Translations under genes and position numbers: made by a program
Shown here: piece after piece, positions 4,801 through 52,661 of the stretch
How the letters are laid out: each line of letters begins with the position of its first letter
Position numbering within the stretch: the first letter of the stretch is position 1
Virus record (IMG/VR): IMGVR_UViG_3300028886_000058
Span: 60,602 to 124,601 of that record
Length of the DNA stretch: 64,000 nt
Direction: 5' to 3' (one strand)
Origin: a virus
Taxonomy: Duplodnaviria; Caudoviricetes
The notes under the pieces: generated by a model
What the model saw: the letters and a program-made list of their open reading frames with translations, nothing else
What the model was told of the DNA's origin: nothing
Database searches by the model: none

Positions 4801-7800
4801 TTGAGTAGCTGGTTTTTCTTCGTTTTCTTGCCTTATTTCTACTATTGTTATTTTCTTACCTTCTAAATCATCAAGAACATTCTTAATATTGTTGAGTTCT
4901 TCTTCGTAAGAATATAACTGCTCTGTTGCTTTCCACCAGTCATCAGAATATTTAGATAATCCACTTCGATAATTCTTTAATTCTTCTATACTCTTTTGAT
5001 ACTGGGCTTCAAGACGAGATTGAAGGTTTATTTCCTTGTCTACTGTAGATAAATAATTGTCATAATCATTCATCTTTTCGTAGTGTATTTCATCAATCTC
5101 GAGCATCTTTTGCTCGTGCTGCAAAGCGGCAAGATCATGCTTTTGTTTTTCAAGAAGCTTATCGAGGCCAGATTTACCTCCACCGCCTCCTCCGCCTCCG
5201 CCGCCACCATGAGATCCAGTTCCTTTTACACTATCAATAACAACTTTACCAGATACATGTGTCCCATCGTCGGTGACTTCATAATGAGCGTCAACACCCA
5301 TGGATTGGAGCAACGCAATTAGCTTTGCTTGCTCTTCAGACATCGCGCTGCCAACGCCTTCAACGATGTCTTCCATTGAAACATTCCATGATCCGCCTTC
5401 AAGATTAACAGTTGGTCCTCCAGGAATTGTTAACGTTTCTCCGTTAATATATTCGCCTAAAACATCAGAAAGATCATCTATATAATTGTTTGCAAAATCC
5501 TGTAGCCCAGCAATGTCACTTGCTTCGTTTTCCTCTAGCGCTTTTAATATCGCGTCATTAAATTTTCCTGATTTTAATTCTTTATCGCTAAGGTTAAACC
5601 CTGTCATTTCTTTTACAGCAGATAATGTATCCTTATCACGTTTTCCTTTTTTAAACTGATCAGTATAATATTGATTTTTAGCAACTTTTGACAATTCTGA
5701 ACGTAAATTCTTAAAAGCAGATGTTTGTTCTTGTATTGAGCTACTATCATCGTGCATCGCTTTTCTGGCATCACGCAAAGACTTTGTAATATTCTTTTGA
5801 GCTTTGTTCCATTCATCTGACGTCTTTCCAGACTTTTTTAGAATTTCATCATAACGCTCATTTGTCTCGTTGAAATCATCTAGCTCAATTCCAGCCTCTT
5901 GTACTGCTTCAGCAACAGCAGCCCATGTATCAAATCCTTCTATTCCAGACGTATAAGCCTCAAAAGAACCAATTCTATCGTTATTGCGTATTGCGCTTAT
6001 GTCGTTAGAATTTATAATTTGTTGTAAACCTTGATACCTCTGGGAATTTGTTAATCCAGACACGCCGTTTGCAGCATTGTTGACAATAGTATTTGCATAT
6101 AGCTGGTCTAAATCAGAAAGATTCTCGTTTGGATTGAACGTCGCTAAACGTTCTGTCATGTTGCCATCATCTAAAAACCATGATCCGTTTTCGAAATAAG
6201 CACCCTCCGGAAGATTTAACCCCACTCCATTTTGGAAATCAATAAGACTATTTCTAACGTAATTAGAATATCGCGTGTTTCCTGTAATTTGACTTAAAGC
6301 CTCATATCCGGCTTCTTGATCTGCAATGTCTCCTTGTAAAAACGAGAGCGCTCTATCGTAAGTTTCTCCAGATGTAAGCACTTCTGTTATATTGTTAAAA
6401 GATTCAGAAGCTGAAGCAGCTGCTTGAGCAAGCATCAATAAAACTTCAGAAGCTTCATGCCCAGAAGCTTCAACATCGGAAAAGTCTATGTTTCCATTTT
6501 CATCTGCTTTAACGCCAATATCGTTGAATTTTTTACGAAGTTCTTCTGAAGAATTTAAGAGATCTGTCCAGTTTTGAACATCAGTATCATTAATTGCGTT
6601 TGCAAGATCTACAAACGATTTAATGCTACCATTAGAAAGCGAATTATAAATCTCATTAGCAGCAATTGCGCCTTTGTTTTGTTGTTGATACTGTAATTGC
6701 TGATAATTAAAAGCTCCACCAGCAGACGTCGAAGACAGCTTAGCTTTTTCTAAACTCTCTTGTTCTTGTGCAACTCGAAGTGCTTCATTGTTTTCGTTAA
6801 ACGCTAATTGCCTTAATTCTTCTGATGGAGTTTGCCCGTTTTCTATTGCCCATTGATATTGTTGACCATAAGTTCCAAGACTTGAAACAGCGGCAGAATA
6901 AAGATCATAGTCGGTATCTTTTGTTAATACTCCATTTAACAATTGCATCCTTGCATTTGCTAATTCAGAATCTGAGTATTTACGCGTTGTATCAGCAAGC
7001 AAGGCAGATCTATCAACAGTACTGCTACTTGGCTTATTATAGTCAGCTAATATTTTTTCGTATCTTTCTTGTATATACGAAGGCACAGAAAAGAACGTGC
7101 CATATTGTGCCATATTATCTGATGCAAAACCAATAGTTCCAGTACTCTCATCATATTGATATCTATATTCATTTCCTGTTGTGCCATAAAAATCATTTAA
7201 CTCTGCTAAAGCAGCTTGGCGAATAGATTCATCTGTTTTTTGATCTTCTTCTGCTATTCTTTGCTCTGTTAACTTTATGGCTTCTTCTCTGTTGTTCTGT
7301 ATTCTTTCTTTTGACCATCCGGTATACGACATCATCGCATTAAGCTGTTCTTCAGCAGTGCCATTTCTAAATAAAGCAGCTTGTTGCGCATTGTTGTATA
7401 AAGTGTTTTCAAATTCAAGCTTCGCTTTAATGGCGAATTCTCCGCCTTTTTGAAGCCCTTCAACTAAGGCCGCAGTTCCTTCAAGTACTTTATTAGCGGA
7501 TTCTAATTCAGATACTCCTGTAACTGCTATTTGTACGTCTATCTCTCTTTTAAGATTAACCCCTTCTTGAGATCTGCGCTGGAAAAGATCCATTTGCATA
7601 TATTTCTCAAGGCCAGAAATACTTTTAGCAGCACTCCACTCGTCTTCTGTCCATTGAGTTAATCCTGTTTCAGCTTCTGTAAGAGAATCATATCCTAATA
7701 CTTTTTTAGCTAATGAAGCTGCTTGTGAATTGGTGTATTGTTTTCCTGTACCAAATGCAATTCCCTTTTCAGCAAGCGTTCTTCTTACAAGGTTTTCATA

Positions 7801-10800
7801 TTCAGAACCAACATATGTTCCTGTTTCAAGAGCATTAAGAATATTATCTGCATTATCTCCAAAATAAGTTTGGAATGATTTATATCCGTCGCTATTTCTG
7901 TATCCTTCTATAAGATTTGGTTGCGATGAAAGAAGATTAATTATTTCTCCCCAAGATGAAGATATACTAGCATTAGTTGCTTTACCTGTAACAGCATTTT
8001 CCAGTCCGGATTTAACAATATTAATATCGTTACCTAGCCAACCCAATAAAGCTTCTGGAGTATCAAATATAGCATTTGCCAATACAGAATCCAGCCCAGC
8101 AGAAGCATAAGCACTTTTTAGCTCGTCAATTGATTCATATTCAGATATTCCTTTAATTCTATATCTCGACAACGAGCTTAAATATGCCTTTTGAAGTCTT
8201 TTATCGTATTCCTCATCAGATTCTCCTTGATACTGAGAACCAGTAATTTCTTGAGCAAGCAACATAGCAGCATCTGTACTTATTGGTTGTCCGTTTAATA
8301 TGCTTGCTATGCTTGTTTGAAGATTGTTTGCATTGGCTTGTTGTATTTTAGCTGATATAAGTCTATCTGCAGTTTGATAAGCAACATTTCCGTTTGCATT
8401 TTTTATGCTTGTGTATTCTAAACCGTTTGTTCTGACAAATGCTTTTGCTTCGTCTTCAGTAGTAAAACCTTTTCCGTTAACAAAATACGACCATGCATCT
8501 TCCGGGGCATTCTCTTCAACAAAACGATTTATATAAGCGCTTGGATTGTTGCTATTTAAAAAGCCAGTAAACACACGAGAAATTAATGGAGTTATTGCTT
8601 CTGTACTTAAAAGACCTTTTTTTGCTCCTTCTTGAATCAGATATTCTGGCAATATTTCGTTAGTTTCTTGGTCTACAACGTTCTTAACTATGTAGTTCTT
8701 AAGTGTTTTTTCTAAAAATTCAGAATCATACACATCACTTGCATTTGCCAATGATTCGATAGGAAAGTCTTTTACCATATTTTGAGCAAAATTTAAATCA
8801 ATTTGCCTTTTAGCAATGTCTAAATTTTCTTGCATTTCCTGGTTCATTAAACCTGTAACTACATTTTGCCAAAAAGAAGTTGCATCTTCATTAGATATTT
8901 TATTTTCCTTTTTATTCTTTAAAGCAATTGCAACAGGATCAGTTCCATACATTATATCAATATAATCTTTAAAATCTTTGTTTTCAGAATATAAAGAAAC
9001 TAATGCATTTACTCTGCTTTGATTATCTTTATTGGCAGCACTTTCTGTGTTAAACTTACGAATAATTTCTTCTGGTGTTTTATCTTTATATATATTATAT
9101 CTGTCATTTGCTTCTTTGTAATCAGAGTAAGTATATGAACCAGATTCCATACCAGACATTATGGCATAAAGAGAACTTTCATTTGGAACATATTTTGACT
9201 TAATCCAACTAGAAATTCCTGTTTTTAAATTTGAGATGCGTTGTGGTGTAAAAGATTCTTCATATAATAAATTTTCATAAGTTTGTTGAGATGTTTTTGC
9301 CTCATAATCAACTGCTTCCTGAACTGTTTGACGAGTGTTTTCTTTAAGATACTTTTTGCCTGTTTCGCTAGCGCTTTTTACAGCATTTTCCCAGTTAGAA
9401 AGATCTTTAATTGCATTTAGAATTGACGCAGAAACTTCTGGAAACGCATTCTTTAAATCGTATAACCCTTTTGTAAGATTGTTTTCCGCTTGTGACTTAG
9501 CTACTGAGTCTTGAGAATCTTTTAAATCATTATATGCTTTTCCTAATCTCGTAACTTCATCTATGACATTTTGTTTGCTGTCATATGATTCATCTCTTAT
9601 TGCTTTTGATTCTTCGTTGCTTGTTAATAAACTTTCTTTATATTTATTAAACTTTTCTTTTTCACTTTGGAAATTTAAACCTGCAAATAATCCTTCAGAC
9701 AGAGCACCTCCGGCAAGTCCAGCAACCAACATAATTAATGTGGTAATCGGAGCAAGCTTGCCTCCACTAAGCGCCAATGCAGCAGTAGCAGCTGTAATCG
9801 CAGAGATACCTCCAGCAATAACAGAAAATCCATGCTCTATTCCATTATTATTAGATATCATTTGCAAGAATCCAGATATTCCATCAAGAACACCAGTTAC
9901 AACACCGCCATTAACAAAGCTTTCTACAACAGCGTCCCAAGAACTCTTTAATTCATTCATTGACGCTGAAAGACTCTGCATTGCGACTTCATATTTTGTT
10001 TGCGTTATTCCACTAGAGTTTTCAGCTAAGCCAAGATATTTATCTAACGTTGCACCATTATCTTCTGACATGCCCTCCATTAATGTTGCGAACACATTTG
10101 TCTGGCGAGTACCAGCCATCGCGTTCATAACAATATTCTTTTGGGCGTCGCTTAAATTTTGCCATACTTTTGATAAGTCAGACAAAACTTCATAAGACGA
10201 ACGCATTTTACCTAATGTTTTATCGTCCCAAAGATCAATTCCAACAGATTGTAAAGCAGCTTCAGCATCTGACGCCGTAGTTGCTTCGCCGTTCTGATCG
10301 GATGTCCATTTACTAAGACTTAGTCTCCTCATTCGAGTAAATACAGTTTGAAGAGCTGTGCCTACTTGTGTTCCGCTTAACTGCGTATCACTTGTACCAA
10401 TAGTTAAAAGAGCTGTCAATTCAGAATAAGAAACACCTGCAACTTTAGCCGCAGCCGCAGCTTTCTGCATACCTTTGCCAATTTCGGCAGCAGTTGTAGC
10501 AGCAGAGTCACCAAGCGCAACAAGAGCATCCATAGCTGCTTCTGCAGATGGAACAAGATCATTTTGTAAAGCTGTTGTAATTATTTTTGTTGCTTCAGTT
10601 ACGTTTAATTTAGTTACTGTTGCAAACTTAATAATGGACTCTGTACGAGAAGAAACTTCAGTATCACTTAATCCTTGACGATAAAGCGCCGCTTCAACAC
10701 CTGCAACATTAGATACTGATGTGCGAAGACCCAATGCTTTACTTATTGTTTGTGAACGAATTCCAGTCATATCCTCATCAGACTTTAAAGTTATGGCTTG

Positions 10801-13800
10801 AATTTCGTTCATTGAAGCGTCAAATTCTTTTACGAAACGTTTTGTTTCCTGAAGCGCTTTTTGGAACAACTGACGTCCAAGACGTGTAGCTAACCTGCCA
10901 ACAACGTCTCCGAATTGAGAAGTAATAGCCATTGCTGTAGCCATTGGATCAGATAATTGTTCAATAGCTTTTCCGGCCTCAAGCGAAGCAGCTTCAAGTT
11001 CTTCAACTTCTTTTTTTGTGTTTTTATACTTATCGCTTGAAGTATCTCCGCTTTTTATATAGCTGTTTAACTGCTCTCTTTTTTTCGTCAGATCTTCATT
11101 TATTGATTGCTGTTTATTTTCCCATTGGGATAACGCAGAATCTCTTCTGTCTAAAGCACGAACCAAGAACCCATTGCGAGTACCAAGACCATGCCTTTTC
11201 ATTTGATCCATTTGACGAATAGACTGTTTTATGCGTAAACTGTCTCGTTGTTCACGGATATCGTTTTCAGCTCTTAATTGTTCAATATAATCGTCTTCAT
11301 TGTATTGATCATAATAACTAAGCAAAGAATCTAATCTTTCTTGTTGTGCAGCAGACAGTTTTGTTTTACCGTATCTTTTTTGAATACTTGCTTTTTCTTG
11401 CTTTATTTTTTCTGTTTGTTCATGAGCCGCAATATTAATTTGTTCATCTGTAGACAATCTTAAGCTACTTACATTACCAGCAATTCTAGCTTTTCTTGAT
11501 TCAAAATCTGCGAATGATTTGTCAATAATATTATCGCCATATGCTTTCATAGATGATATGGATATCATCTTATCAAGACTTTTCATATAATTGGCATATT
11601 CATCAGATTCTTCATCTATGCCAAATTCTTTTGCGTATAATTTAGCATTTGCTTTTAGCTGTTTTACTGATTTTATATAAGATGTCATTTCGTCAGAGAT
11701 GGAAGTAACATTCGATGTCTTTTCACCAGAAGCAAGATCATCTAAATAATCTCTTGACTGATTAAGTTCGTCCCATACGTCTTTTTCGTTCTTTTTTAAA
11801 TACTTTGATTTTTCTTTATTTAATTTGTTCTGTAATGCCGCAGCTTCTTTTCGTTTTGGAATGAATATTTCATTCTGCGCTTCTATTTCAGCGATCTCAT
11901 TCTGAAGCCTTATTTTTTCTTCTTCTGTTTCGGCACCTTTTAGTTCAGCTTTTTTCTTTTTTGCATTAGTTTCATTTGATTCAATTTTGCTTTTAAGAAC
12001 TTCATATGCATCAGAAGCAGCTTCTATTTGTGCTGTAAGATTTTTAAATTCTTCGACCTTGCTGTTTGCCTTTTTCGATGCGACTTCTTCTGTATTGATA
12101 TTATGTAATAAATCATACGCATCCTGTAAATTTTTAACAGAAGCATCAGGCAATATCGCGTCTAATCCAGAACGAGCTCTGTCTACTTGATCTCTCAGCA
12201 TATCTGCTTGAATAAACATTCCAGCATTTTCAAGATCATAAATAGTGCCTTGTTGCATAGCAAGCTGTTCATAGTTTCTAAGCCATGCGTTTCCTCTAAG
12301 TCCTTGCTTGCTTGCATCGTTTTTCCAGATAAAACTATTGATTCCGGAAACGGTTTGCATTGCTTTATTATATTCGTCATGCATTACAAGAGCCGCGCCG
12401 ACACCTTCGCCAGTATTGCTGCCAACTTGAGCTTGCATATGTTCAACACGATTTTGTTCTTGCTGTAACGTATTTGCAATTTCGCTAAATCCGCTATGCC
12501 CAAACATATCGTCTAAAGCTTTACTAACCGCTAAAACTTGATCCATTTGGAATCCATTTTCCGCTAAGGTTTGGATAAGACGAGTTCCTTCTTGGGCCTT
12601 CTCGAGATTCTTTTGTATTGCTTCTGGAGAAGAATTAATCTGGCTTAGTCTGTTCTGTATCGGTTCAACGATATGGATACCTTCTAGTCCTCCGGCGGCA
12701 AGGCCTTTCGACTCTAAATAACCTGGAATAGCGCTTGCATACAACAACTGTTGCATTTGCCACATAGCTCTATCATGCGCTGTTGCATGAGGATAGTTCT
12801 TTAAGTCGCCAATTGAATACTGACCAGTTTTCCTGTTGCGTACCAATAAGTCGAAATAGCCTTTGCTTGTTACGTCTTCTTCTTCGCCTTTTTCATTCTT
12901 GTTTATTTTTTTACCAAGATTAAACGTAAGAGGAGAATTCTTTTCACCAGGACTTGTCGCGCCTTCTACGGCAACAACCTCATATTCGCTTTCAGGAAAT
13001 AAGTTCACTAAGCTATTACCAAGATAATTTTTTATATTTTTATAAGAATCTGTATTTTTAAGTTTCTTTACTTCTGCTTTTGATAAACCTTTTTTACCCA
13101 CATTATCGTCGAAATATTTTTCAAAATCTCCAACAGCTTCTTGTGCGGCTTTTGCTAATTCGTCTTCTGTCATTAATGTTGGGTTTTCTTCTAAGGCTCT
13201 TGCCATTCTTTTTCTCATAAATCCTTCAACGGCTTCATGAGTTGCCCAACCAAGATGTGTATACGGAGTAACATCTTGCTCTTTTCCGCCAAGATAATGT
13301 TCTGCCCATGCTGTTGGATTTTTCATTAATGATGCAAATAAGCTAGGAGAGAACTGAAGCTGATCAAGCTTTTTTGCGCGTGTTTCTTGATCAAAAGTGG
13401 CAATTTGAGATAATGTATCGTTACGTTCTAATAAGCGCTTTGCCTCTGCTTCTTGTTTTAATGCGTTATTAGATAAAACTTCTCCTTGCACATAGCCGCT
13501 TAAATCTGTATGACCTATAAGATTTGTTAAACCAATTTGATTAAGCTGACCAAATAAATCTCTATTAGCTCCAAGAATTGAAGAATTTTGAGTTAAAGCA
13601 TAAGAAACAAGGTTGTCTATTACAGATCCGCCTTGAGAAGCTAATCTTGATTTTGCAATTGCAGCGTCTGAGCGACGTAAATCAGTTCCTTTTAAAAGAC
13701 CATTTTGTCTTTCTTGAGCTACACGTTTTTCTTCTTCTTCGGTTGCCCTTGCTTTTAATTGCAATAACTGTGCAACCATTACATCAGACGGAGCCAAGTA

Positions 13801-16800
13801 ATCTGCGTTAACAATGCCTAGCATTGTATCACGTAATCCAAGCTTCATTCTTCCAACAGCACTATTAGGATCTATTTCTCCATTAGCCGTCTTAAGAATT
13901 TCATCCCAGTTATATCCTTCGTTTATGTCGTACCCGTACACATTCTTCGCAATAAAACGAGCAAGATTTTGAGATCGCATACTGCCACTCATACTTGCAG
14001 AAGGAAGATTTATACCGAAGAAATTCTTTTTCCTGAGTTCTTCAGGATCAATGTTTCCAAACTCGTCTCTGGATTTATCTACCATTCTATACCATTCACT
14101 GAATGGTTTATATTTTCCAATAATAGATTGTTGTTGGCTACTTGTGTTTCTACCTTCGCCTTTTTTACCTTCTGTTGAGTTTGCATTGTATTGTCTATCA
14201 GCATCGATCAATGCAATTGCTATCTCTGAATCTGGTGTCATTTGAAACGCATTTCGAACTGTTGCGTTAGGCGTTCCCATCGAAGACGATTGCAAAGCAT
14301 AGTCAGACATCCATACTGCCGCGTTCTGTGCACCCTTTTTAGTTCTAAAATCAGTAGAAAAACTGTTTCCATGTTCTCTGAAGCGCCTTAAAACATTGTC
14401 TCTTTGCTTAAGTTGTTCTTCGGAAAGATTTCCACTTTCATATAATTTTTTATTATTCTTTACAGTAGCAGTAACTATTTTGTCCATTACTTTTGCAATT
14501 GATGCTTTTTTCTCTTCGTTCGTAGCAAGTTCAATAATCTCCATTACGTCGCCGTCGAAATCAGCGCCTTGTAAAAGCTGCATCAATGGAGATGTAGTTG
14601 AGATATATAAACCATACGGATCTAATCCTATAGATTCTGCGAATTTTGAAATAGCATTATCGCCTTTCGCATTCATCACAGCTTGAACAGATTGTCCAGT
14701 TGCTGGGTATCTGCCAAGACCTAATTTGCTTGCAAGTGTTTTTTGGAACAAGACTCTATTGTCCCCAAGTGTCAATTCATTGAGTCTATTTTGCACTTTC
14801 TTTGGAAGTTGCTCAAAAGCCGACATAGTTTCGCCATTACGCTTTGTCTGCATATCAGCATTAAACGCATCAATTAACCATGGAGCAGCCATTCCTTTAT
14901 ATGCAGATGCGTTTTCTGGAAGCATAATGTCTCCACGCAACATTCTTGCCATAATTGCTTGGCGGTAATCAGAAATTCTATTTTGAATAGCTTTGCTTCC
15001 AAAAAGTTCTGGATGCTTAGCAAGCAAATCGTGTGTTTCACCTTCGGCAAATAAATGATTCATTGCATAATCGTAGTTACCGACATTTTTATAATGTTCG
15101 ATAAAAGATCTTGCAAACAACATGCTATCTGATTTATCCATTGAAAGTGTTTGCGCTAACTGTCCAGATATCCATCTTGTTTTACCGTTTGCGTCGCTGT
15201 AAAGTTTATTAGCATATATTCCTTTTTGAATATCTTTTTGAACTTCTTTTGTTATTTCTTCATTTGTCATTCCTGCGAAACGAGCGTTTGCATTTTTCAA
15301 GTCCGCAGCGTTAACAATCATATCAACGTCTTTGCCAATCTTGATGCGTTTACCAATCTTAATTTCCTTACCTTTATCATCAAGACGAACATTTCCATTT
15401 TCATCTAATAAAGCTTCTTTTTCTGCGTCAGATCCAGTATACGACGAAAGATAAAGTTCGCCACCGTAAGCTTCTATAAGTTTCTCAATATCTACAGCAG
15501 AAAGTGCAGACTTAATACCATGTGCACGACCTTGGAAACCTTTCTGTACAAATCTGTTAGAAATAATACTAGCACCGTTTAGTCCAGCGCCGCCATTTCC
15601 TTTTGTAGTGTCTTCAAGATCAACAACAACAATGTTTTGAGGCATTTCAGACCCAAATAATTTTTGAATGCTTTTGCCTGGCGTTGCGTTTTTATTTCTA
15701 TATTCCATTGCAGCAGCATATGTTTTCCAATCAGAAAAATCTGTCATTCCTAATCCAGCTGAAAAATATGTAGGATCTTCTTTGTTTATTTTGTCAAAGA
15801 TGCTTTTCCTAACAAATTCAGCTCCCATTTTAGGATTTATTCTGGATAAGACATATCTTTCATTCGCATCGTTCTTTCCTTTGCCGGAAATACCATGTTG
15901 AAACACATCAGCGTATTGATTAATTAAAGCTTTTCTTTCCGCTGCTGGTAAATTTGGATCACCAAGACGCGGATCAACCTCAAGATAAATTACATCGTCT
16001 GAATACGCATTATGCTTTTTGATACCGCCTTTGCTATTACGCATAATAGTATTAAGATGCATACTTTCGTCAACTGCAATGTGATGATAGTCTTTGTAAT
16101 TATCATATGTTTTTCTATCGTTCCAATTTCTATTGTTTTTTATATCATCTAAGTTATAAAAAGCAACTTCATAACTATTCGGAACAGGAGAATAATTAAT
16201 CTTTCCTGCTGAATACATTACGTTTTGCTTGTTTCTTCTTCCGCTATTTATCTTATTATAATCTTGTTGGGAATATCTTTCTGCTTCAAACCATCCATAT
16301 TCATCACTTAACCTTCTTGCGGCAGACATTCCACCCATAAATCTTTTGTTTGATTTGCGAGCTATTTTATCCCAGACGGCAGGATCATTAACGTCTGTGA
16401 TGCCGTACATTCCCATACCCTTTGCTGAATTCACAAGATCATCATATAAATAAGCGCCCATTGACTTGACCATGCCTCTGGACACGTTCTTCTTGACAAA
16501 GAGTTCACCATTTTTTCTTTGTACGATTTTAGCTGCTTCAGCAGCGTCAGCTGCAAACTGGTTATTCATCAACAAAGAATATAATGCTTGAGTTTCTTTA
16601 GCCGTTAATGATTGCGAATTTGCTTTTAATGCTTTTGCAAAATCAGGACTTGAGACATTTGCTGTACCAGTATTTATTCTTTTAAAACCTGTTGGAAGCA
16701 TATCCTGAAAACTGTCAAAAAGATGTTTTGCAGATCCTGTGCCAGTTGCTATTCTATTCATGAACGAAGCACGTTGAGTTTGACCTACACCTTTAAGAAT

Positions 16801-17373
16801 TGCCAGTCGGAAAATATCATCAACGTTACCAGAAGTATCATTTCCTAGTAATGCAGAACGCATTGCTTTGTATTTTTGTGTCGCTTTTATAGAAGCTAGG
16901 ATTTGATCATCAGATGCCAAAGAACCGGTTTGTCTATAAATTTTAGTCGCATCTCTTGCCATTCCCATTAACTGAGGCATTAACGACTTCATTTGCTTTT
17001 GAGTATATGCTGTTGTTTGAGAGCCTATCTGCGATGTCAATTTCTGGATGGTTTGCACATCAGAAATAACGGCAGACAAACTTCTTGCCAAATTATTGAA
17101 CTCTGTTGTTTTAATATCCATTTGATATGAATCAAGTTTTCCAGCTTTTATTTGATCATTTATCAAAGACATATTGTGAAGAGTATTTGTGACGTTTTGA
17201 GATGCTTCATCAAATTGAGCACCAGTTTCTGGCAAAATAGATTCCGCATTCTTTTTTGTTTCTTTAATTGTTTTATTAAGTCTTTCACCCGCTGTAACAA
17301 GAGAGTTAAAATTCTCAACCGAATTACCAAAATCAATTTCAAAAGAAATTACACTTTGATTCTTTTCTGGCAT
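1855..17373 (-). CDS. Giant tape measure protein (5172 aa) with N-terminal RNA polymerase-like and PD-(D/E)XK nuclease-like domains
   Basis: TP901-type TMP core at about 9950-10830 (LYRQGLSD...ALGDSAATTAAEIGKGMQKA...SGTQVGTALQTVFTRM), long coiled coils and C-terminal GGLVDYTGPAWVDG. Also carries GRYP and GADFDGD motifs (14548-14712) and FSPS...GYFDLL...GDLK...QQLLYA motifs (about 12730-13356). Confidence 0.9.
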   Translation of the reverse strand: MPEKNQSVISFEIDFGNSVENFNSLVTAGERLNKTIKETKKNAESILPETGAQFDEASQNVTNTLHNMSLINDQIKAGKLDSYQMDIKTTEFNNLARSLSAVISDVQTIQKLTSQIGSQTTAYTQKQMKSLMPQLMGMARDATKIYRQTGSLASDDQILASIKATQKYKAMRSALLGNDTSGNVDDIFRLAILKGVGQTQRASFMNRIATGTGSAKHLFDSFQDMLPTGFKRINTGTANVSSPDFAKALKANSQSLTAKETQALYSLLMNNQFAADAAEAAKIVQRKNGELFVKKNVSRGMVKSMGAYLYDDLVNSAKGMGMYGITDVNDPAVWDKIARKSNKRFMGGMSAARRLSDEYGWFEAERYSQQDYNKINSGRRNKQNVMYSAGKINYSPVPNSYEVAFYNLDDIKNNRNWNDRKTYDNYKDYHHIAVDESMHLNTIMRNSKGGIKKHNAYSDDVIYLEVDPRLGDPNLPAAERKALINQYADVFQHGISGKGKNDANERYVLSRINPKMGAEFVRKSIFDKINKEDPTYFSAGLGMTDFSDWKTYAAAMEYRNKNATPGKSIQKLFGSEMPQNIVVVDLEDTTKGNGGAGLNGASIISNRFVQKGFQGRAHGIKSALSAVDIEKLIEAYGGELYLSSYTGSDAEKEALLDENGNVRLDDKGKEIKIGKRIKIGKDVDMIVNAADLKNANARFAGMTNEEITKEVQKDIQKGIYANKLYSDANGKTRWISGQLAQTLSMDKSDSMLFARSFIEHYKNVGNYDYAMNHLFAEGETHDLLAKHPELFGSKAIQNRISDYRQAIMARMLRGDIMLPENASAYKGMAAPWLIDAFNADMQTKRNGETMSAFEQLPKKVQNRLNELTLGDNRVLFQKTLASKLGLGRYPATGQSVQAVMNAKGDNAISKFAESIGLDPYGLYISTTSPLMQLLQGADFDGDVMEIIELATNEEKKASIAKVMDKIVTATVKNNKKLYESGNLSEEQLKQRDNVLRRFREHGNSFSTDFRTKKGAQNAAVWMSDYALQSSSMGTPNATVRNAFQMTPDSEIAIALIDADRQYNANSTEGKKGEGRNTSSQQQSIIGKYKPFSEWYRMVDKSRDEFGNIDPEELRKKNFFGINLPSASMSGSMRSQNLARFIAKNVYGYDINEGYNWDEILKTANGEIDPNSAVGRMKLGLRDTMLGIVNADYLAPSDVMVAQLLQLKARATEEEEKRVAQERQNGLLKGTDLRRSDAAIAKSRLASQGGSVIDNLVSYALTQNSSILGANRDLFGQLNQIGLTNLIGHTDLSGYVQGEVLSNNALKQEAEAKRLLERNDTLSQIATFDQETRAKKLDQLQFSPSLFASLMKNPTAWAEHYLGGKEQDVTPYTHLGWATHEAVEGFMRKRMARALEENPTLMTEDELAKAAQEAVGDFEKYFDDNVGKKGLSKAEVKKLKNTDSYKNIKNYLGNSLVNLFPESEYEVVAVEGATSPGEKNSPLTFNLGKKINKNEKGEEEDVTSKGYFDLLVRNRKTGQYSIGDLKNYPHATAHDRAMWQMQQLLYASAIPGYLESKGLAAGGLEGIHIVEPIQNRLSQINSSPEAIQKNLEKAQEGTRLIQTLAENGFQMDQVLAVSKALDDMFGHSGFSEIANTLQQEQNRVEHMQAQVGSNTGEGVGAALVMHDEYNKAMQTVSGINSFIWKNDASKQGLRGNAWLRNYEQLAMQQGTIYDLENAGMFIQADMLRDQVDRARSGLDAILPDASVKNLQDAYDLLHNINTEEVASKKANSKVEEFKNLTAQIEAASDAYEVLKSKIESNETNAKKKKAELKGAETEEEKIRLQNEIAEIEAQNEIFIPKRKEAAALQNKLNKEKSKYLKKNEKDVWDELNQSRDYLDDLASGEKTSNVTSISDEMTSYIKSVKQLKANAKLYAKEFGIDEESDEYANYMKSLDKMISISSMKAYGDNIIDKSFADFESRKARIAGNVSSLRLSTDEQINIAAHEQTEKIKQEKASIQKRYGKTKLSAAQQERLDSLLSYYDQYNEDDYIEQLRAENDIREQRDSLRIKQSIRQMDQMKRHGLGTRNGFLVRALDRRDSALSQWENKQQSINEDLTKKREQLNSYIKSGDTSSDKYKNTKKEVEELEAASLEAGKAIEQLSDPMATAMAITSQFGDVVGRLATRLGRQLFQKALQETKRFVKEFDASMNEIQAITLKSDEDMTGIRSQTISKALGLRTSVSNVAGVEAALYRQGLSDTEVSSRTESIIKFATVTKLNVTEATKIITTALQNDLVPSAEAAMDALVALGDSAATTAAEIGKGMQKAAAAAKVAGVSYSELTALLTIGTSDTQLSGTQVGTALQTVFTRMRRLSLSKWTSDQNGEATTASDAEAALQSVGIDLWDDKTLGKMRSSYEVLSDLSKVWQNLSDAQKNIVMNAMAGTRQTNVFATLMEGMSEDNGATLDKYLGLAENSSGITQTKYEVAMQSLSASMNELKSSWDAVVESFVNGGVVTGVLDGISGFLQMISNNNGIEHGFSVIAGGISAITAATAALALSGGKLAPITTLIMLVAGLAGGALSEGLFAGLNFQSEKEKFNKYKESLLTSNEESKAIRDESYDSKQNVIDEVTRLGKAYNDLKDSQDSVAKSQAENNLTKGLYDLKNAFPEVSASILNAIKDLSNWENAVKSASETGKKYLKENTRQTVQEAVDYEAKTSQQTYENLLYEESFTPQRISNLKTGISSWIKSKYVPNESSLYAIMSGMESGSYTYSDYKEANDRYNIYKDKTPEEIIRKFNTESAANKDNQSRVNALVSLYSENKDFKDYIDIMYGTDPVAIALKNKKENKISNEDATSFWQNVVTGLMNQEMQENLDIAKRQIDLNFAQNMVKDFPIESLANASDVYDSEFLEKTLKNYIVKNVVDQETNEILPEYLIQEGAKKGLLSTEAITPLISRVFTGFLNSNNPSAYINRFVEENAPEDAWSYFVNGKGFTTEDEAKAFVRTNGLEYTSIKNANGNVAYQTADRLISAKIQQANANNLQTSIASILNGQPISTDAAMLLAQEITGSQYQGESDEEYDKRLQKAYLSSLSRYRIKGISEYESIDELKSAYASAGLDSVLANAIFDTPEALLGWLGNDINIVKSGLENAVTGKATNASISSSWGEIINLLSSQPNLIEGYRNSDGYKSFQTYFGDNADNILNALETGTYVGSEYENLVRRTLAEKGIAFGTGKQYTNSQAASLAKKVLGYDSLTEAETGLTQWTEDEWSAAKSISGLEKYMQMDLFQRRSQEGVNLKREIDVQIAVTGVSELESANKVLEGTAALVEGLQKGGEFAIKAKLEFENTLYNNAQQAALFRNGTAEEQLNAMMSYTGWSKERIQNNREEAIKLTEQRIAEEDQKTDESIRQAALAELNDFYGTTGNEYRYQYDESTGTIGFASDNMAQYGTFFSVPSYIQERYEKILADYNKPSSSTVDRSALLADTTRKYSDSELANARMQLLNGVLTKDTDYDLYSAAVSSLGTYGQQYQWAIENGQTPSEELRQLAFNENNEALRVAQEQESLEKAKLSSTSAGGAFNYQQLQYQQQNKGAIAANEIYNSLSNGSIKSFVDLANAINDTDVQNWTDLLNSSEELRKKFNDIGVKADENGNIDFSDVEASGHEASEVLLMLAQAAASASESFNNITEVLTSGETYDRALSFLQGDIADQEAGYEALSQITGNTRYSNYVRNSLIDFQNGVGLNLPEGAYFENGSWFLDDGNMTERLATFNPNENLSDLDQLYANTIVNNAANGVSGLTNSQRYQGLQQIINSNDISAIRNNDRIGSFEAYTSGIEGFDTWAAVAEAVQEAGIELDDFNETNERYDEILKKSGKTSDEWNKAQKNITKSLRDARKAMHDDSSSIQEQTSAFKNLRSELSKVAKNQYYTDQFKKGKRDKDTLSAVKEMTGFNLSDKELKSGKFNDAILKALEENEASDIAGLQDFANNYIDDLSDVLGEYINGETLTIPGGPTVNLEGGSWNVSMEDIVEGVGSAMSEEQAKLIALLQSMGVDAHYEVTDDGTHVSGKVVIDSVKGTGSHGGGGGGGGGGGKSGLDKLLEKQKHDLAALQHEQKMLEIDEIHYEKMNDYDNYLSTVDKEINLQSRLEAQYQKSIEELKNYRSGLSKYSDDWWKATEQLYSYEEELNNIKNVLDDLEGKKITIVEIRQENEEKPATQRATILQKQAQNYQLAEEFGKYESTQNDILSQYKEDIKKNNDDIKEYEDLLTKYKENSKNWLNVRDHIWQLQAENADLENQFLQDTIALNEARLGNIATQLERNSMDAQHNINNFESYGNAYQMLHMYDEYRDTVRGIKAENEELYKYYQEAANSARAQMAQLEEDGWSETESWYNAKEALYSYDEMLHQLDVDKIERDQAIAQSYVDQARYQVEDAVKPLQAQLQMAQLQGEAYKKESNNEGYLQMLREQAELQEQIAIEQEAQRDSLQEMLDTAIGNGEIEEYSDAWKIVTEGIWELEQGSKSASNAIIDLKNEIEQVSFQNIVDAFSVIDDLNQHQIKLVQYDETKFQNLGELTNYGRALEVEQGLHNERTSNIENQLEILRAFYDTLDSSSPIYKQVRAEIYKLEEARKSEINTVEQLTEKIRKNQEAIIKAHTDVENAIDKEIRNRIQTEKNMLNATVTMENTIINVIKKNYQDEWALIKKTIQKQKEALNEQKALLNERIKAKKDAMNQEDKMEELSRLKQQLALIQADQSRTKDAKELSKKIEEIERDLAWNIADEQAAAQNKLYEDQIKALDEFVSTEEENLNERLSHYDTFRDKVTELLSGTFDDFVNFMAQDDEEYKNASEERRKQLEQGWEDTWHVMKHELQTYWDEVEGYGSSKESFMDYMLGSDSYAMASEAGKKAIEMNLDYMYDRMIAADKDDKYELYDTHEILDKIDDMQDWTYKVEWDSADSDFGNLKDYFDAIIGGPHKDLYTDFMSQFSEYEGIGKKDEPKKKKSSSSSSSSSSSSSPSGYANYYATAFGLKSDNTTLLAGGGWKSSKNAAKDAAISEFAKKGGVQRQTGNIYQEDKNGTVNAGGRKAKNVGTFLNGGLVDYTGPAWVDGTKTKPEAFLDSTDTALLRAMLDEFTYIKTSPYMTHLDESAFGKGGINVGDVNVNLYEARLESDADYDEVARRVGKAFTKELQKDGFNLAAYAW

Positions 17374-48499: not shown

Positions 48500-48886
48500 A
48501 TGCAGAAAATTATCATTTGTGGCAATCTTACTGCCGATCCGATTATTAATGAACGGGAATATGTGGTTAAAGATACGGCAGAAATTAAAAAGACAAAGGT
48601 TGCTAATTTTACTGTGGCTGTTGACAGTGGCTATGGTGAAAGGAAAACTACACAGTTCTTCAGGGTAAATGCATGGCGCGGACTTGGCGAAACTTGTGCA
48701 AAGTATCTTGAGAAGGGTCGTCAGGTTATGGTTGAAGGCGTTGTCTCTCTTAACAATTACGTTGACAAGAACAATAACCTTCGTGCTGTAATGGAAATTC
48801 GTGCAAATGAAGTACAGTTTCTTGGCAGCAAGGGCGTTGAGACTCCTGAAGAACTTCCTCCTGAAGAAGAGGAAATGCTTTATTAA
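48500..48886 (+). CDS. ssb: Single-stranded DNA-binding protein 2
   Basis: IIICGNLTADP, FTVAVD, FFRVNAW, YLEKGRQVMVEG and EVQFL motifs. Confidence 0.92.
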   Translation: MQKIIICGNLTADPIINEREYVVKDTAEIKKTKVANFTVAVDSGYGERKTTQFFRVNAWRGLGETCAKYLEKGRQVMVEGVVSLNNYVDKNNNLRAVMEIRANEVQFLGSKGVETPEELPPEEEEMLY

Positions 48887-50569: not shown

Positions 50570-50640
50570 CGAGGATGTAGTGTAACGGTAACACGCGTCG
50601 CTTGGGACGACGAGTAGCAGTTCGACTCTGACATCTTCGA
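50570..50640 (+). tRNA. tRNA-Pro(TGG), atypical acceptor/T-stem geometry
   Basis: CGAGGATG/CATCTTCG acceptor, GTGT/ACAC D stem, CGTCG-CTTGGGA-CGACG anticodon arm and TTCGACT T loop with a weak T stem. Confidence 0.75.
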
Positions 50641-50832
50641 CTTTAAACCGAGTGTATGGGACGAGGCTACACATTCCCATTCGAAACGCACAAAAACTCT
50701 CGCCCAGTGTAGGGGTAGGTGAACGGTAACGCGTAGCGCTACCGACACGAAGAAGAGAGTTGCTGGGTTTATATTCCTGCGGTTTGCCGGCTTTGTTATT
50801 ATTTTATGACTTACTGATAATGGAGAAAACGT

Positions 50833-51357
50833 ATGAAAACAAATTATGTTGCTTCTTGGCGTCCAGGTGCAGATAAGGTTTATAGCAAAAATATTGATGT
50901 TCAAAAGGTAGCTCAAGAAATGCTTGCTATTAAAGGTGAAAATAGTCTTGAAACAACTACTGCTGAAGAGATTGTTAATATGGCAAGAGACGAAAATACA
51001 GAGAGCCATAAAATTTTTGAGTGGGATGATTCTATAGCGGCTGAAAAATATAGAGTTACTCAAGCTCGTTACTTAATGCACGATGTGCACATTATATGGA
51101 CAAAGACTGGCAAAAAGAAAGAAAATAAAACAGTTGTTCCTGTAAGAATGTTTTATAACTTGAAAGGCGAACTTGGATATCATCCAACACCAGTTATTAT
51201 GAAGAACGATGATCTTCATAAGAAGCTTTTAATGACCGCAAGAGCTGAACTTGAAGCTTTTAAAAAGAAGTATGAAATACTTTCAGAATTAAAGCCATTA
51301 CTTGTTGAAATTGATAAAGTTATTTATGAATTAAAGATATTTGAAGAAACTGCCTAA
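50833..51357 (+). CDS. Hypothetical helical protein, partner of the RAMP-like gene
   Basis: TAEEIVNMARDENTESHKIFEWDDSIAAEKYRVTQARYL motif; ends 6 nt before the pentamer array. Confidence 0.75.
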   Translation: MKTNYVASWRPGADKVYSKNIDVQKVAQEMLAIKGENSLETTTAEEIVNMARDENTESHKIFEWDDSIAAEKYRVTQARYLMHDVHIIWTKTGKKKENKTVVPVRMFYNLKGELGYHPTPVIMKNDDLHKKLLMTARAELEAFKKKYEILSELKPLLVEIDKVIYELKIFEETA

Positions 51358-51363
51358 TAATCA

Positions 51364-51964
51364 TGCGGTTAGTACAATTAGGAGCTTATTACTTCTTTTG
51401 CATAGCTTATAATAGAATAGAAAAGGACAGCAAATAGATAAAACACTATAAAATATAATAAGCTTCTTATTGTGCTAACCGCACAGAACCTTACAATAAA
51501 ACAGAAAAGCAAACAATAGTTCCATGTAAAATACGTTAGCCTAATACAGAACACGAAAGCATATCTACCGGTCTGAATAAGGATGCAATGCATCCTGTAA
51601 GTTAATTTATGATATTATAAGTTAAATTACTATATAATATGATTTTATACCACAGTATACTATATAACATTGCATCTTTATTCAGGCTGGTAGTGATACC
51701 AGTTGTAGGTCATGACAGCAAAATATAGGATAGTTAAGAAAACCTTATGATTGGACAGGACACAATAATGTGTACCAACTATGTGGTTGGTACAATTGGA
51801 GACTTGTGAAAGTCTTTCAGCATATGACAAACTAGGACACTTTAGGCTAGAAAAACATATGACACAATAAAATACGACATAAGTCTTCAATTGTGCTAAT
51901 CGCACAACTATATTGCAATATAGCAAAACAAAGGTCAACCTAGGAAAAAACAACACATAATATT
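51364..51964 (+). ncRNA. Array of three long hairpins and six 5-nt-periodic (NNA-NN) tracts; putative guide RNA array
   Basis: Stems 51364-51391/51456-51483, 51565-51590/51668-51693 and 51782-51808/51878-51904. Eleven of the 12 non-Watson-Crick positions are G-U on the + strand. Pentamer tracts lie inside and between the hairpins. Confidence 0.85.
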
Positions 51965-51980
51965 TAAAGGAGTAAAAGAA

Positions 51981-52661
51981 ATGAAAAAGAAAGAAATCAA
52001 AGCAAACAATGAAGTAGAACTGATGAACATTCAAGCAAACATTAAGCATATGATTGTCACTGTTGAAGGTGATGGCGATCTTATTCTTAATAAAATGAAT
52101 GCTCGAAATGAACGCTGGCTTCTTGGTGGACGAGATAGCGGTGTTGAAGAACGTTCAAACGTGTGGGAAGATATCATTACGTCTATTCATTGGTATAAAC
52201 CACTTGAATGCGAAGACACTTATAAAGAATGTAATGAAGAAATGATGATGTCTCTTCTTAAGGAAAATAAACCGTGTATTTCTGCGTTTGCATTTAAGAA
52301 AAGCTTTGGAGATGCAACAGTACGGAACGAAATTGATACATATGCAACGAAGATTAATACAGCTGTTAATGTAGTTGCTGTTGGAGGACTTATTCCGATT
52401 GAATTCGGTGGTTGGAGCGTAGAAAAACGGCTGATGAGCCCGAAGAAAGGCAAGCCGCTTACTGTGCATCTTAATCATTTTCATAATTGGAGTGCTAAGA
52501 TTCAAATTGATTATATGGATCATGTATTTAGCCGTGATCAAATTCTGAATATTATCAATCTGGCTGGCTTTGGTCTTGGCATTGGAAGTGGACGAACTTC
52601 TGGATATGGGCGTTATCACATTACTAACGTAGATATGATTGAAGAAGCAGAAGCAGCATAA
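51981..52661 (+). CDS. Solo RAMP / Cas7-like RNA-binding protein
   Basis: N-terminal strand (MIVTVEGDGDLILN), PCISAFAFKKSF helix, WSAKIQIDY strand and C-terminal glycine-rich loop AGFGLGIGSGRTSGYGRY, as in RAMP RRM folds. No other cas genes or CRISPR array in the window. Confidence 0.75.
   Translation: MKKKEIKANNEVELMNIQANIKHMIVTVEGDGDLILNKMNARNERWLLGGRDSGVEERSNVWEDIITSIHWYKPLECEDTYKECNEEMMMSLLKENKPCISAFAFKKSFGDATVRNEIDTYATKINTAVNVVAVGGLIPIEFGGWSVEKRLMSPKKGKPLTVHLNHFHNWSAKIQIDYMDHVFSRDQILNIINLAGFGLGIGSGRTSGYGRYHITNVDMIEEAEAA

What the first reader, a model, noticed from the sequence alone, without database searches (positions are those of the whole stretch)
51364..51904. Three 26-28-bp hairpins with G-U covariation punctuate the array, a possible guide-processing scaffold
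Seen in sequence: stems 1 and 3 are diverged copies (TGCGGTTAGTACAATTAGGAGCTT vs TGTGGTTGGTACAATTGGAGACTT), while stem 2 is unrelated in sequence. Eleven of 12 deviations from perfect complementarity are G-U pairs on the + strand, which indicates selection on RNA rather than on a DNA cruciform. Tracts alternate loop/linker/loop/linker/loop/linker. Inference: cleavage across each stem, for example by host RNase III, would release six separate guides without a Cas6.
Basis: partly seen in the sequence, partly recalled or inferred. Interest (0 to 1): 0.75.

Follow-up and report, generated by a model that had tools for sequence, protein, structure and literature searches.

The report
Hairpin-punctuated phage VIPR guide-RNA array
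The three long hairpins are real, conserved RNA helices that separate six guide RNAs of a phage VIPR system (a CRISPR-like, RNA-guided DNA silencer first described in 2026). This layout is absent from the text of the four VIPR papers I searched, and it probably marks where the guides are cut apart.

Summary
Observation confirmed exactly. There are three stems of 28, 26 and 27 bp; 11 of 12 non-Watson-Crick positions are G-U on the + strand. These are the three longest helices in the 124.6-kb phage genome.

They lie in the gap between a 174-aa gene and a 226-aa gene. The 226-aa protein is a Vipr-type RAMP: its profile hits PDB 36pp "SUSP1 Vipr", and its model matches Cas7/Csm3. All six tracts (three loops, two linkers, one tail) are runs of 11-16 pentamers NN-A-Y-A. 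This is a variant of the published GGY/NN code of VIPR guide RNAs.

The module gene - hairpin array - vipr recurs in 146 of 160 related metagenomic loci. The stems there are + strand-specific (G-U 726 vs A-C 309). They covary strongly (21 of 25 pairs with double changes), and the same stems carry different loops.

Two tracts decode in frame under the published 1-nt-skip rule: T5 to an SSB motif, T6 to the Walker A of type I HsdR.

The RNase III idea fits but is untested. No ribozyme and no phage RNase III gene were found, and stems of unrelated sequence share one array.

I also found a small competing 5' hairpin in 97% of units.

Earlier reports of this scan described the same architecture on other phage DNA. 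Verdict: new variant of a known kind.

The parts
50833..51357 (+). 174-aa accessory gene (vap-like; phrog_15946, no Pfam). It ends 6 nt before hairpin 1.
   Evidence: found with the array and vipr in 146 of 160 related loci. Model pLDDT 88.8 with no solved-fold match.
51364..51391 (+). H1 5' arm (family B stem)
51392..51455 (+). T1, loop of H1. Pentamer tract NN-A-Y-A, the weakest periodicity of the six.
51456..51483 (+). H1 3' arm
51484..51564 (+). T2, linker tract. 16 pentamers, 15 ending in A; it fills the whole linker.
51565..51590 (+). H2 5' arm (family A stem; homologues in L047, L127, L049)
51591..51667 (+). T3, loop of H2. 14-15 pentamers NN-A-T-A.
51668..51693 (+). H2 3' arm
51694..51781 (+). 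T4, linker tract. About 13 pentamers starting at 51703.
51782..51808 (+). H3 5' arm (family B, diverged copy of H1)
51809..51877 (+). T5, loop of H3. 11 pentamers from 51820. Its NN series reads the SSB motif AWRGLGETCAK in frame.
51878..51904 (+). H3 3' arm
51905..51975 (+). T6, tail tract. 11 pentamers from 51908, running into the vipr Shine-Dalgarno. Its NN series reads L-x-MATGTGKTY, the Walker A of type I HsdR.
51981..52661 (+). vipr: 226-aa RAMP protein with a C-terminal glycine-rich loop (GIGSGR..GYGRY)
   Evidence: Profile hit to PDB 36pp_D 'SUSP1 Vipr protein', E 3.3e-4. Model pLDDT 88.4 matches Cmr4/Csm3 Cas7 proteins, E 2e-7.
51580..51596 (+). Small local hairpin of unit 2: the top of the 5' arm pairs with the first loop bases (-9.6 kcal/mol). 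It is mutually exclusive with the upper long stem.
51798..51817 (+). Small local hairpin of unit 3 (-7.4 kcal/mol). The unit 1 equivalent, 51380-51396, is weak (-2.1).

Best explanation
The 623-nt gap between the 174-aa gene and the 226-aa gene is the guide-RNA array of a VIPR system. VIPR consists of a lone Cas7-like protein (Vipr) plus guide RNAs written in five-base steps.

In this clade the step is NN-A-Y-A, not the published GGY/NN. The array is transcribed on the + strand, most likely as one RNA with the two flanking genes.

The three 26-28-bp helices are punctuation. Each closes one guide tract in its loop, and in this subclade the spaces between helices hold further guides.

Most likely (inferred, not shown), a double-strand-specific host endoribonuclease such as RNase III cuts both strands of each helix. 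That would release RNAs of roughly 90-115 nt from loops and linkers alike, much as RNase III stalks in rRNA operons release the loop rRNAs and the spacer tRNAs.

After the cut, a small 5' hairpin that competes for the upper 5' arm could take over. That would free the guide ends so that Vipr can polymerise along the tract.
For: Shown here.

- RNA-level, + strand selection. In the window 11 of 12 deviations are G-U. Under strand-symmetric detection in 203 distinct related hairpins, G-U 726 vs A-C 309, and 147 hairpins vs 24 favour the + strand.
- Covariation. In 11 homologous hairpins, 97.7% of cells pair and 21 of 25 pairs have changes on both sides. 0 of 500 shuffles reach this, and slid controls give 32-43% paired.
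- Conservation of the module. vap - hairpins - vipr occurs in 146 of 160 loci. 109 of 114 distinct arrays have at least one stem of 17 bp or more, and the other five fold into bulged long stems. 16 of 18 MAG loci also have the hairpins.
- Family identity. Vipr profile hit E 3.3e-4; Cas7 fold match E 2e-7.
- Same pentamer logo in 231 loop tracts and 52 linker tracts.
- Scaffold/guide logic. Identical stems carry different loops.
- The guides look functional. T5 matches the SSB motif in frame. T6 matches the HsdR Walker A in 92 viral contigs, all in frame, where I estimate about 2 chance hits.
- No other cutter in sight. No ribozyme or other Rfam family in 15 arrays. No RNase III gene in the phage.
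- Stems of unrelated sequence (families A and B) share one array, which argues for a structure-specific rather than a sequence-specific enzyme.
- H1 starts 6 nt after the upstream stop. In 76 of 109 arrays the first hairpin starts within 25 nt, so co-transcription is likely.
- No intrinsic terminator follows any stem.

Inferred.

- One Vipr protomer binds per repeat, with a 72 A pitch per six subunits (10.64898/2026.04.26.720927, read). Eleven or more repeats would therefore span about 130 A, too long for a loop held shut by a stem. The stem should be cut or opened before loading.
Against: - Transcription, cleavage and RNase III involvement are therefore untested.
- In most related arrays the hairpins stand back to back with 5-20-nt linkers. 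There, a single-strand endonuclease cutting between hairpins would do as well.
- T6 overlaps the vipr ribosome-binding site, so it may not be released as a free guide.
- T1 has weak periodicity.
- The filament-geometry argument assumes that this clade's filament resembles SUSP1's; the ends of that filament are reported as flexible.
- The figures of the VIPR papers could not be seen. The 'staggered arrays' of fig. S18 cannot be excluded as the same thing.
Confidence: 0.5

Rival explanations
1. The stems are not cut. They are structural boundaries: they cap each guide, stop Vipr filament growth at the tract ends, and protect the RNA from exonucleases. Separation happens in single-stranded RNA, by RNase Y, E or J.
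For: Linker lengths are bimodal, and 162 of 278 linkers are only 0-20 nt. Most units could therefore be released whole by one cut between hairpins. Published SUSP1 vrRNAs end in a structured 3' tail that is kept in the mature RNA (10.64898/2026.04.26.720920).
Against: In the window and its nearest relatives the linkers are themselves full guide tracts that abut the stems with 0-1 nt to spare, so a cut in the linker would destroy a guide. A closed 64-77-nt loop seems incompatible with a straight filament of 11-14 protomers (inference).
Confidence: 0.25
2. A phage protein recognises and processes the hairpins, playing the role of Cas6. The candidate is the 174-aa accessory protein or Vipr itself.
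For: The 174-aa gene accompanies the hairpin arrays in nearly every locus, while other neighbours are not conserved. It has invariant or near-invariant charged and aromatic residues (W64, R74, H59, K60, D66, E71, Y116) and a fold with no solved match. RAMP proteins include RNA endonucleases (general knowledge).
Against: One array holds stems of unrelated sequence, and stems across the clade share only a weak G-rich patch. This is unlike the repeat-specific recognition of Cas6. There is no nuclease-like fold or motif. The published accessory proteins are described as DNA-interacting.
Confidence: 0.15
3. The inverted repeats act on DNA. They could be cruciforms, single-strand replication signals, or recombination cassettes that let guides be swapped between phages. 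On this view the RNA helix is a by-product.
For: Identical stems carry different loops in related phages, as expected if the stems serve as homology arms for guide exchange. The region lies among replication genes such as ssb.
Against: Strong strand asymmetry: G-U on the + strand vs A-C. The orientation is constant relative to the flanking genes in all loci. Covariation keeps G-U intermediates. A swap role is compatible with the RNA role rather than an alternative to it.
Confidence: 0.05

Closest known systems
VIPR systems (Vipr protein + vap + vrRNAs). Type II exemplars are Escherichia phage SUSP1 and a Pseudomonas fulva prophage: bioRxiv 10.64898/2026.04.26.720920, 10.64898/2026.04.26.720927, 10.64898/2026.10.15.759431; PDB 36pp.
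   Same: - Phage-borne.
- One small RAMP protein with a G-rich loop.
- One accessory gene.
- Guide RNAs of 9-16 pentamer repeats with two variable bases each.
- Targets read with one skipped base that falls on the codon wobble position.
- Aimed at other genetic elements.
   Different: - The fixed letters are A-Y-A, not G-G-Y.
- There is no 3' tail or pseudoknot. Instead 24-30-bp helices enclose the guides, and in this subclade further guides sit between the helices.
- The array lies between vap and vipr.
- The accessory protein is an unrelated, unknown fold.
- The papers' text names tailed, staggered, hammerhead-interspersed and single-guide arrays. A term search found no long closing stem, stem-loop or RNase III.
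Hammerhead-interspersed VIPR arrays (types I and V, fig. S19 of 10.64898/2026.04.26.720920)
   Same: A structured RNA element between guides that serves to cut a multi-guide transcript.
   Different: No hammerhead or other ribozyme is detectable here or in 14 related arrays. The element is a plain long helix that would need a protein nuclease.
RNase III processing stalks of bacterial rRNA operons, and RNase III sites of phage T7 early mRNA (textbook knowledge)
   Same: Long, nearly perfect helices formed by sequences that flank a functional RNA. Cargo sits both in the loops (16S, 23S) and in the spacers between the stalks (tRNAs). The enzyme is structure-specific, not sequence-specific.
   Different: The cargo here is guide RNA for a RAMP protein. 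Cleavage is not demonstrated.
Type II CRISPR pre-crRNA maturation by tracrRNA and host RNase III
   Same: A guide array without Cas6 whose punctuation is a roughly 25-bp RNA duplex cut by a host enzyme.
   Different: The duplex here is intramolecular (inverted repeats in cis). There is no tracrRNA, no Cas9 and no CRISPR repeats.

Membership tests
VIPR system | Small single-RRM RAMP protein (Vipr) with a glycine-rich loop | tested here: met
   Profile of 32 homologues hits PDB 36pp_D 'SUSP1 Vipr protein', E 3.3e-4, across the G-loop region. The AlphaFold model (pLDDT 88.4) matches Cmr4/Csm3, E 2e-7 to 1e-4.
VIPR system | Guide RNAs made of 9-16 tandem pentamers, each with a fixed trinucleotide and two variable bases | tested here: met
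   Six tracts of 11-16 pentamers. Position 5 is A in 81-89% of pentamers, position 3 is A in about 60%, position 4 is depleted of G, and positions 1-2 vary.
VIPR system | The fixed trinucleotide is GGY (canonical), or the listed variants NNNGG, YNNNG, NNNNG | tested here: not met
   The fixed letters are A-Y-A. A term search of the papers' text did not find AYA or ACA.
VIPR system | Targets read by the 1-nt-skip rule, with the skipped base on the codon wobble | tested here: met
   T5: 9 of 11 dinucleotides in frame on the SSB motif in its own and a related phage, and 10 of 11 in L239. T6: 10 of 11 in frame on the HsdR Walker A in 76 contigs. Binding itself was not tested.
VIPR system | Adjacent accessory gene (vap) and phage location | tested here: met
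   The 174-aa gene is syntenic in 146 of 160 loci. The record is a 124.6-kb virus contig. Homology to the published vap1-6 could not be tested because no sequences were at hand.
VIPR type II vrRNA | Conserved 3' tail with hairpin and pseudoknot after the repeat tract | tested here: not met
   The tracts are closed by long-range 26-28-bp stems or lie between them. No common 3' tail is present.
RNase III substrate | About two turns (20 bp or more) of nearly uninterrupted double-stranded RNA | tested here: met
   26-28 bp with one mismatch in total. The clade median is 25 bp.
RNase III substrate | Cleavage of both strands with a 2-nt 3' overhang, dependent on rnc | not testable with these tools
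No RNA-end data.
CRISPR array with Cas6 processing | Direct repeats of 23-50 nt alternating with spacers; a Cas6 or other Cas nuclease nearby | tested here: not met
   The repeats are inverted pairs of several unrelated families. There is no Rfam CRISPR repeat family and no PADLOC hit for the two proteins.
Ribozyme-interspersed guide array | Hammerhead or other self-cleaving motif between guides | tested here: not met
   No ribozyme family at gathering score in the window or in 14 related loci, and none at E<=10 in 51200-52100.

The most novel reading that the evidence does not exclude
The long stems are a third, host-dependent solution to guide-array maturation in the RAMP world, beside Cas6 and ribozymes. 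An intramolecular RNase III stalk releases two guides per hairpin (loop and linker). A conserved competing 5' mini-hairpin acts as a switch that opens the cut stem for Vipr loading. The same stems serve as portable homology arms for swapping guides between phages. In addition, one guide (T6) is aimed at the Walker A codons of type I restriction hsdR genes, which would make VIPR a programmable anti-restriction weapon as well as an inter-phage one.
Probability: 0.3. Interest if true: 0.8.

Novelty: new variant of a known kind. Interest (0 to 1): 0.6.

Why it matters
VIPR was described only in 2026 and is proposed as the ancestor of CRISPR effector proteins. How its multi-guide transcripts are matured is an open point; the papers mention tails, staggered arrays and hammerheads.

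The clade found here is large and known only from metagenomes. I found more than 700 confirmed loci in gut and rumen phages, and the related MAG contigs are mostly labelled Clostridia. It uses a different fixed code (A-Y-A) and frames its guides with long covarying helices.

If these helices are RNase III stalks, guide maturation by a host double-strand RNase arose independently of tracrRNA-based type II CRISPR. The two-guides-per-hairpin layout would also be a compact design rule for multiplexed VIPR guide expression.

The competing mini-hairpin suggests a folding switch that could be tested directly.

Tried and rejected
- Rfam, whole window at gathering score and 51200-52100 at E<=10: only tRNAs and meaningless sub-threshold miRNA-precursor matches, which reflect the long hairpin shape.
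- ROOL, GOLLD and Y RNA, recalled from memory as large phage RNAs near tRNAs: no Rfam match.
- GenBank phage DNA search with the gap and with 7 kb around it: only tRNA hits.
- IMG/VR scan for the conserved stem words of H1/H3: 43 hits, all chance, none extending into a stem.
- Close-relative search with the two proteins alone in IMG/VR: almost nothing. Alignment-based queries were needed.
It was rewritten from coordinates.
- Minus-strand ORFs over the gap (51378-51593, 51678-52049): no PHROG match, and the gap is non-coding in relatives.
- Intrinsic terminators after the stems: none on the + strand.
- Column-wise covariation test of the small local hairpin on the MAFFT alignment: inconclusive, 64.6% paired and not above shuffles, probably because of register shifts. 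The energy comparison supports the hairpin.
- Self-targets for T1-T4 and T6 in the phage's own genome, and targets in 1.8 Mb of fetched loci: none above order-shuffled controls.
- A perfect 11/11 target for T5: absent from IMG/VR.
- Fold of the 174-aa protein: no Foldseek match; best VIA Z 4.9, on a helical hairpin only.
- The Vipr clade in cultured GenBank phages: only weak C-terminal hits to gene 19 of two Gordonia phages.

Full report
**1.

- H1, 51364-51391 with 51456-51483: 25 Watson-Crick pairs, 2 G-U pairs and one U-U mismatch.
- H2, 51565-51590 with 51668-51693: 23 Watson-Crick and 3 G-U.
- H3, 51782-51808 with 51878-51904: 21 Watson-Crick and 6 G-U.

Eleven of the twelve departures from perfect complementarity are therefore G-U on the + strand. 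On the - strand they would be C-A.

The + strand of 51340-51985 folds to -168.6 kcal/mol (z -11.8 against shuffles). The - strand folds to -150.6 (z -3.6). A scan of the whole 124.6-kb virus record on both strands shows these are its three longest helices, 26-29 bp against 22 bp for the next.

H1 and H3 are diverged copies in which two single-base indels are compensated on the other arm. Their loops have diverged further. H2 belongs to another stem family.

**2. Context**

The window is the right half of an IMG/VR phage record that is 92% complete. It carries five tRNAs. The stretch lies among + strand early genes, with ssb and an HNH endonuclease upstream.

The hairpins fill a 623-nt gene-free gap between a 174-aa gene (50833-51357; phrog_15946, no Pfam) and a 226-aa gene (51981-52661).

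Nothing in Rfam matches. No GenBank phage has similar DNA. A pattern scan for the stem words in IMG/VR gave only chance hits.

**3. Relatives**

Alignment-based searches with the 174-aa protein confirmed 288 loci in IMG/VR and 432 in metagenomes; 160 were fetched.
- In 146 of the 160, a homologue of the 226-aa protein lies 350-1,300 nt downstream on the same strand. Other neighbours are not conserved.
- The gap in between almost always holds long hairpins on the + strand only.
- Of 114 distinct arrays, 109 have 1-6 stems of at least 17 bp. The median stem is 25 bp and the median loop is 72 nt. The other five fold into long bulged stems.
- Twenty contigs of metagenome-assembled genomes, mostly labelled Clostridia (Ruminococcus, Oscillospiraceae, Lachnospiraceae, Blautia), carry the same protein. 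Hairpins lie just upstream in 16 of the 18 examined.

**4. What the system is**

A profile of 32 homologues of the 226-aa protein hits one solved structure: PDB 36pp chain D, "SUSP1 Vipr protein". The E-value is 3.3e-4, over the C-terminal half including the glycine-rich loop. Its AlphaFold model (pLDDT 88.4) matches the Cas7-family subunits Cmr4 and Csm3, E 2e-7 to 1e-4.

Vipr is the effector of VIPR systems, described in 2026 preprints.
- These are phage-borne. They consist of one small RAMP protein, one accessory gene (vap) and guide RNAs (vrRNAs).
- Each vrRNA has 9-16 pentamers, each with a fixed GGY and two variable bases.
- The variable bases read double-stranded DNA with one base skipped per step. 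That base is usually the codon wobble.

All six tracts of the window are such pentamer runs, but the fixed letters are A-Y-A.
- T2: 15 of 16 pentamers end in A.
- T6: 13 of 13.
- T5: 12 of 13.
- T4: 13 of 16.
- T3: reads NN-A-T-A throughout.
- T1: weaker.

Across the clade, 231 loop tracts and 52 linker tracts give the same logo: position 5 is A in 0.81-0.89, position 3 is A in about 0.6, position 4 is depleted of G, and positions 1-2 vary.

**5. The tracts behave as guides**

Under the published rule, the eleven dinucleotides of T5 fall on codon positions 1-2 of the SSB motif AWRGLGETCAK.
- 9 of 11 match in the phage's own ssb (48671) and in the related phage L049.
- The same two codons mismatch in both.
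- 10 of 11 match in another viral contig, L239.
- No perfect match exists in IMG/VR.

The core nine dinucleotides of T6 occur in 92 viral contigs, where I estimate about two by chance. All 92 are in frame on [M/I]ATGTGKTY, and 76 reach 10 of 11. The two target genes I examined are type I restriction R subunits (ResIII, EcoEI_R_C and HSDR_N domains).

So both a loop tract and a tract outside any loop look functional. The helices stand between working guides.

**6. The helices are selected as RNA**

- With a detection rule that treats G-U and A-C alike, 203 distinct hairpins of the clade hold 726 G-U against 309 A-C. 147 hairpins favour the + strand against 24.
- I aligned eleven homologues of H1/H3 from the window, L047, L049, L128 and L129. 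They keep 97.7% of cells paired, and 21 of 25 pairs have changes on both sides. No shuffle out of 500 reaches this, and sliding the partner by 1-3 columns drops pairing to 32-43%.
- One U-G wobble is itself conserved (8 of 11 sequences).
- Within a stem family, the stems stay while the loops are replaced. One arm pair carries 5 different loops, and 19 arm pairs carry 25 loops. This is the scaffold-and-guide logic of CRISPR repeats and spacers.
- Stem sequences differ completely between families, apart from a weak G-rich patch 7-10 bp below the loop. Two families sit in the same array in the window.

**7. How the helices probably work**

*Shown.*
- H1 begins 6 nt after the upstream stop codon. 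In 76 of 109 arrays the first hairpin begins within 25 nt.
- No stem is followed by a U-run.
- The last tract runs into the vipr ribosome-binding site. One vap - array - vipr transcript is therefore likely.
- No ribozyme is present in the window or in 14 related arrays.
- The phage has no RNase III gene.
- In the window and its nearest relatives, the linker tracts abut the stems with 0-1 nt to spare.

*Inferred.*
- A cut in single-stranded RNA would destroy a guide, so separation has to happen in or at the helices.
- Uninterrupted helices of 26-28 bp and unrelated sequence call for a structure-specific double-strand RNase. Host RNase III is the obvious candidate.
- Mid-stem cuts would give RNAs of about 90-115 nt, the size class of published vrRNAs.
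- One Vipr protomer binds per repeat in a helix of six subunits per 72 A. Eleven or more repeats span about 130 A, which a loop pinned by a stem cannot accommodate. The stem should be a precursor feature.

The closest functional analogue is the rRNA operon. There, RNase III stalks release the looped rRNAs and the spacer tRNAs (textbook knowledge).

**8. An added observation**

In 97% of 180 distinct units, the top of the 5' arm can also pair with the first bases of the loop.
- Mean free energy of this small hairpin: -7.9 kcal/mol.
- Mirrored 3' side: -1.4 kcal/mol.
- Shuffled loop starts: -3.3 kcal/mol.

In the window the values are -9.6 for H2, -7.4 for H3 and only -2.1 for H1. This small hairpin and the upper long stem exclude each other.

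A column-wise covariation test on the MAFFT alignment was inconclusive. I read the hairpin as a possible switch that opens a cut stem, but this is speculation.

**9. Caveats and rivals**

Most arrays of the wider clade have back-to-back hairpins with 0-20-nt linkers (162 of 278 linkers). There, a cut between hairpins would suffice, and the stems could simply cap and protect the guides.

The 174-aa protein always travels with the hairpins, and its fold matches no solved structure. A dedicated phage processing factor therefore cannot be excluded, although the sequence diversity of the stems speaks against a Cas6-like reader.

A DNA-level role in guide swapping is compatible, but it does not explain the strand bias.

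**10. Comparison and novelty**

The locus is a VIPR system by protein, by pentamer guides, by the skip rule and by genomic setting. It fails the canonical GGY feature and the type II 3' tail.

A term search of the text of the four papers that mention vrRNAs found no long closing stem, stem-loop or RNase III. The array types they list are tailed, staggered, hammerhead-interspersed and single-guide. Their figures could not be seen.

Earlier follow-up reports of this scan on other phage genomes reached the same reading: ACA/AYA code, long hairpins, competing mini-hairpin. I saw them only after my own analyses. The architecture has thus been found before by this scan on other DNA.

**Verdict.** It is a new variant of a known kind. 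The RNase III step is plausible but unproven.

Noticed in passing
window 51908-51962 (T6); targets e.g. L318:1396-3783, L331:7784-10117: [quoted passage not shown] Its nine-dinucleotide core occurs in 92 IMG/VR contigs, all in frame. The two target genes I examined are type I restriction R subunits (HsdR), so this phage guide may silence a restriction gene. The tract also overlaps the vipr ribosome-binding site, which could allow self-regulation.
   Followed up: partly
window 51820-51874 (T5) vs 48671-48703; L049:7365-7397; L239:488-519: T5 matches the conserved SSB motif AWRGLGETCAK in frame. The match is 9/11 in the phage's own ssb, with two mismatched codons (possible self-avoidance), and 10/11 in another viral contig. 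No perfect target was found in IMG/VR.
   Followed up: yes
window 51771-51794: A perfect 10-bp small hairpin forms between the 3' end of linker tract T4 and the lower 5' arm of H3. This is an alternative pairing that would compete with the base of H3.
   Followed up: no
window 50708-50780: A second copy of the 5' part of tRNA-Pro (50715-50740, 73% identical to 50577-50602) lies 138 nt downstream of the called tRNA. ARAGORN and Rfam do not call it, so it may be a degenerate or unusual tRNA-like element.
   Followed up: no
window 51609-51638: A sigma-70-like promoter match (10 of 12) lies inside the AT-rich loop of H2. It is probably chance, since the region has fewer promoter-like sites than shuffles.
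   Followed up: no
window 50833-51357: The 174-aa accessory protein family is large and viral. It has a confident predicted fold (pLDDT 88.8) that matches no solved structure. One structural neighbour cluster in the ESM Atlas is labelled DUF4494.
   Followed up: partly
window 1855-17373 (- strand): A single open reading frame of 5,172 aa in the late-gene half of the phage.
   Followed up: no
Gordonia phages ODay (MW534375.1, 10775-10960) and Ecliptus (OP820472.1): The only GenBank phage hits to the Vipr protein are weak matches (34-36% over about 58 residues) of its C-terminal glycine-rich region to hypothetical gene 19. These may be distant RAMP-like proteins in cultured actinophages.
   Followed up: no
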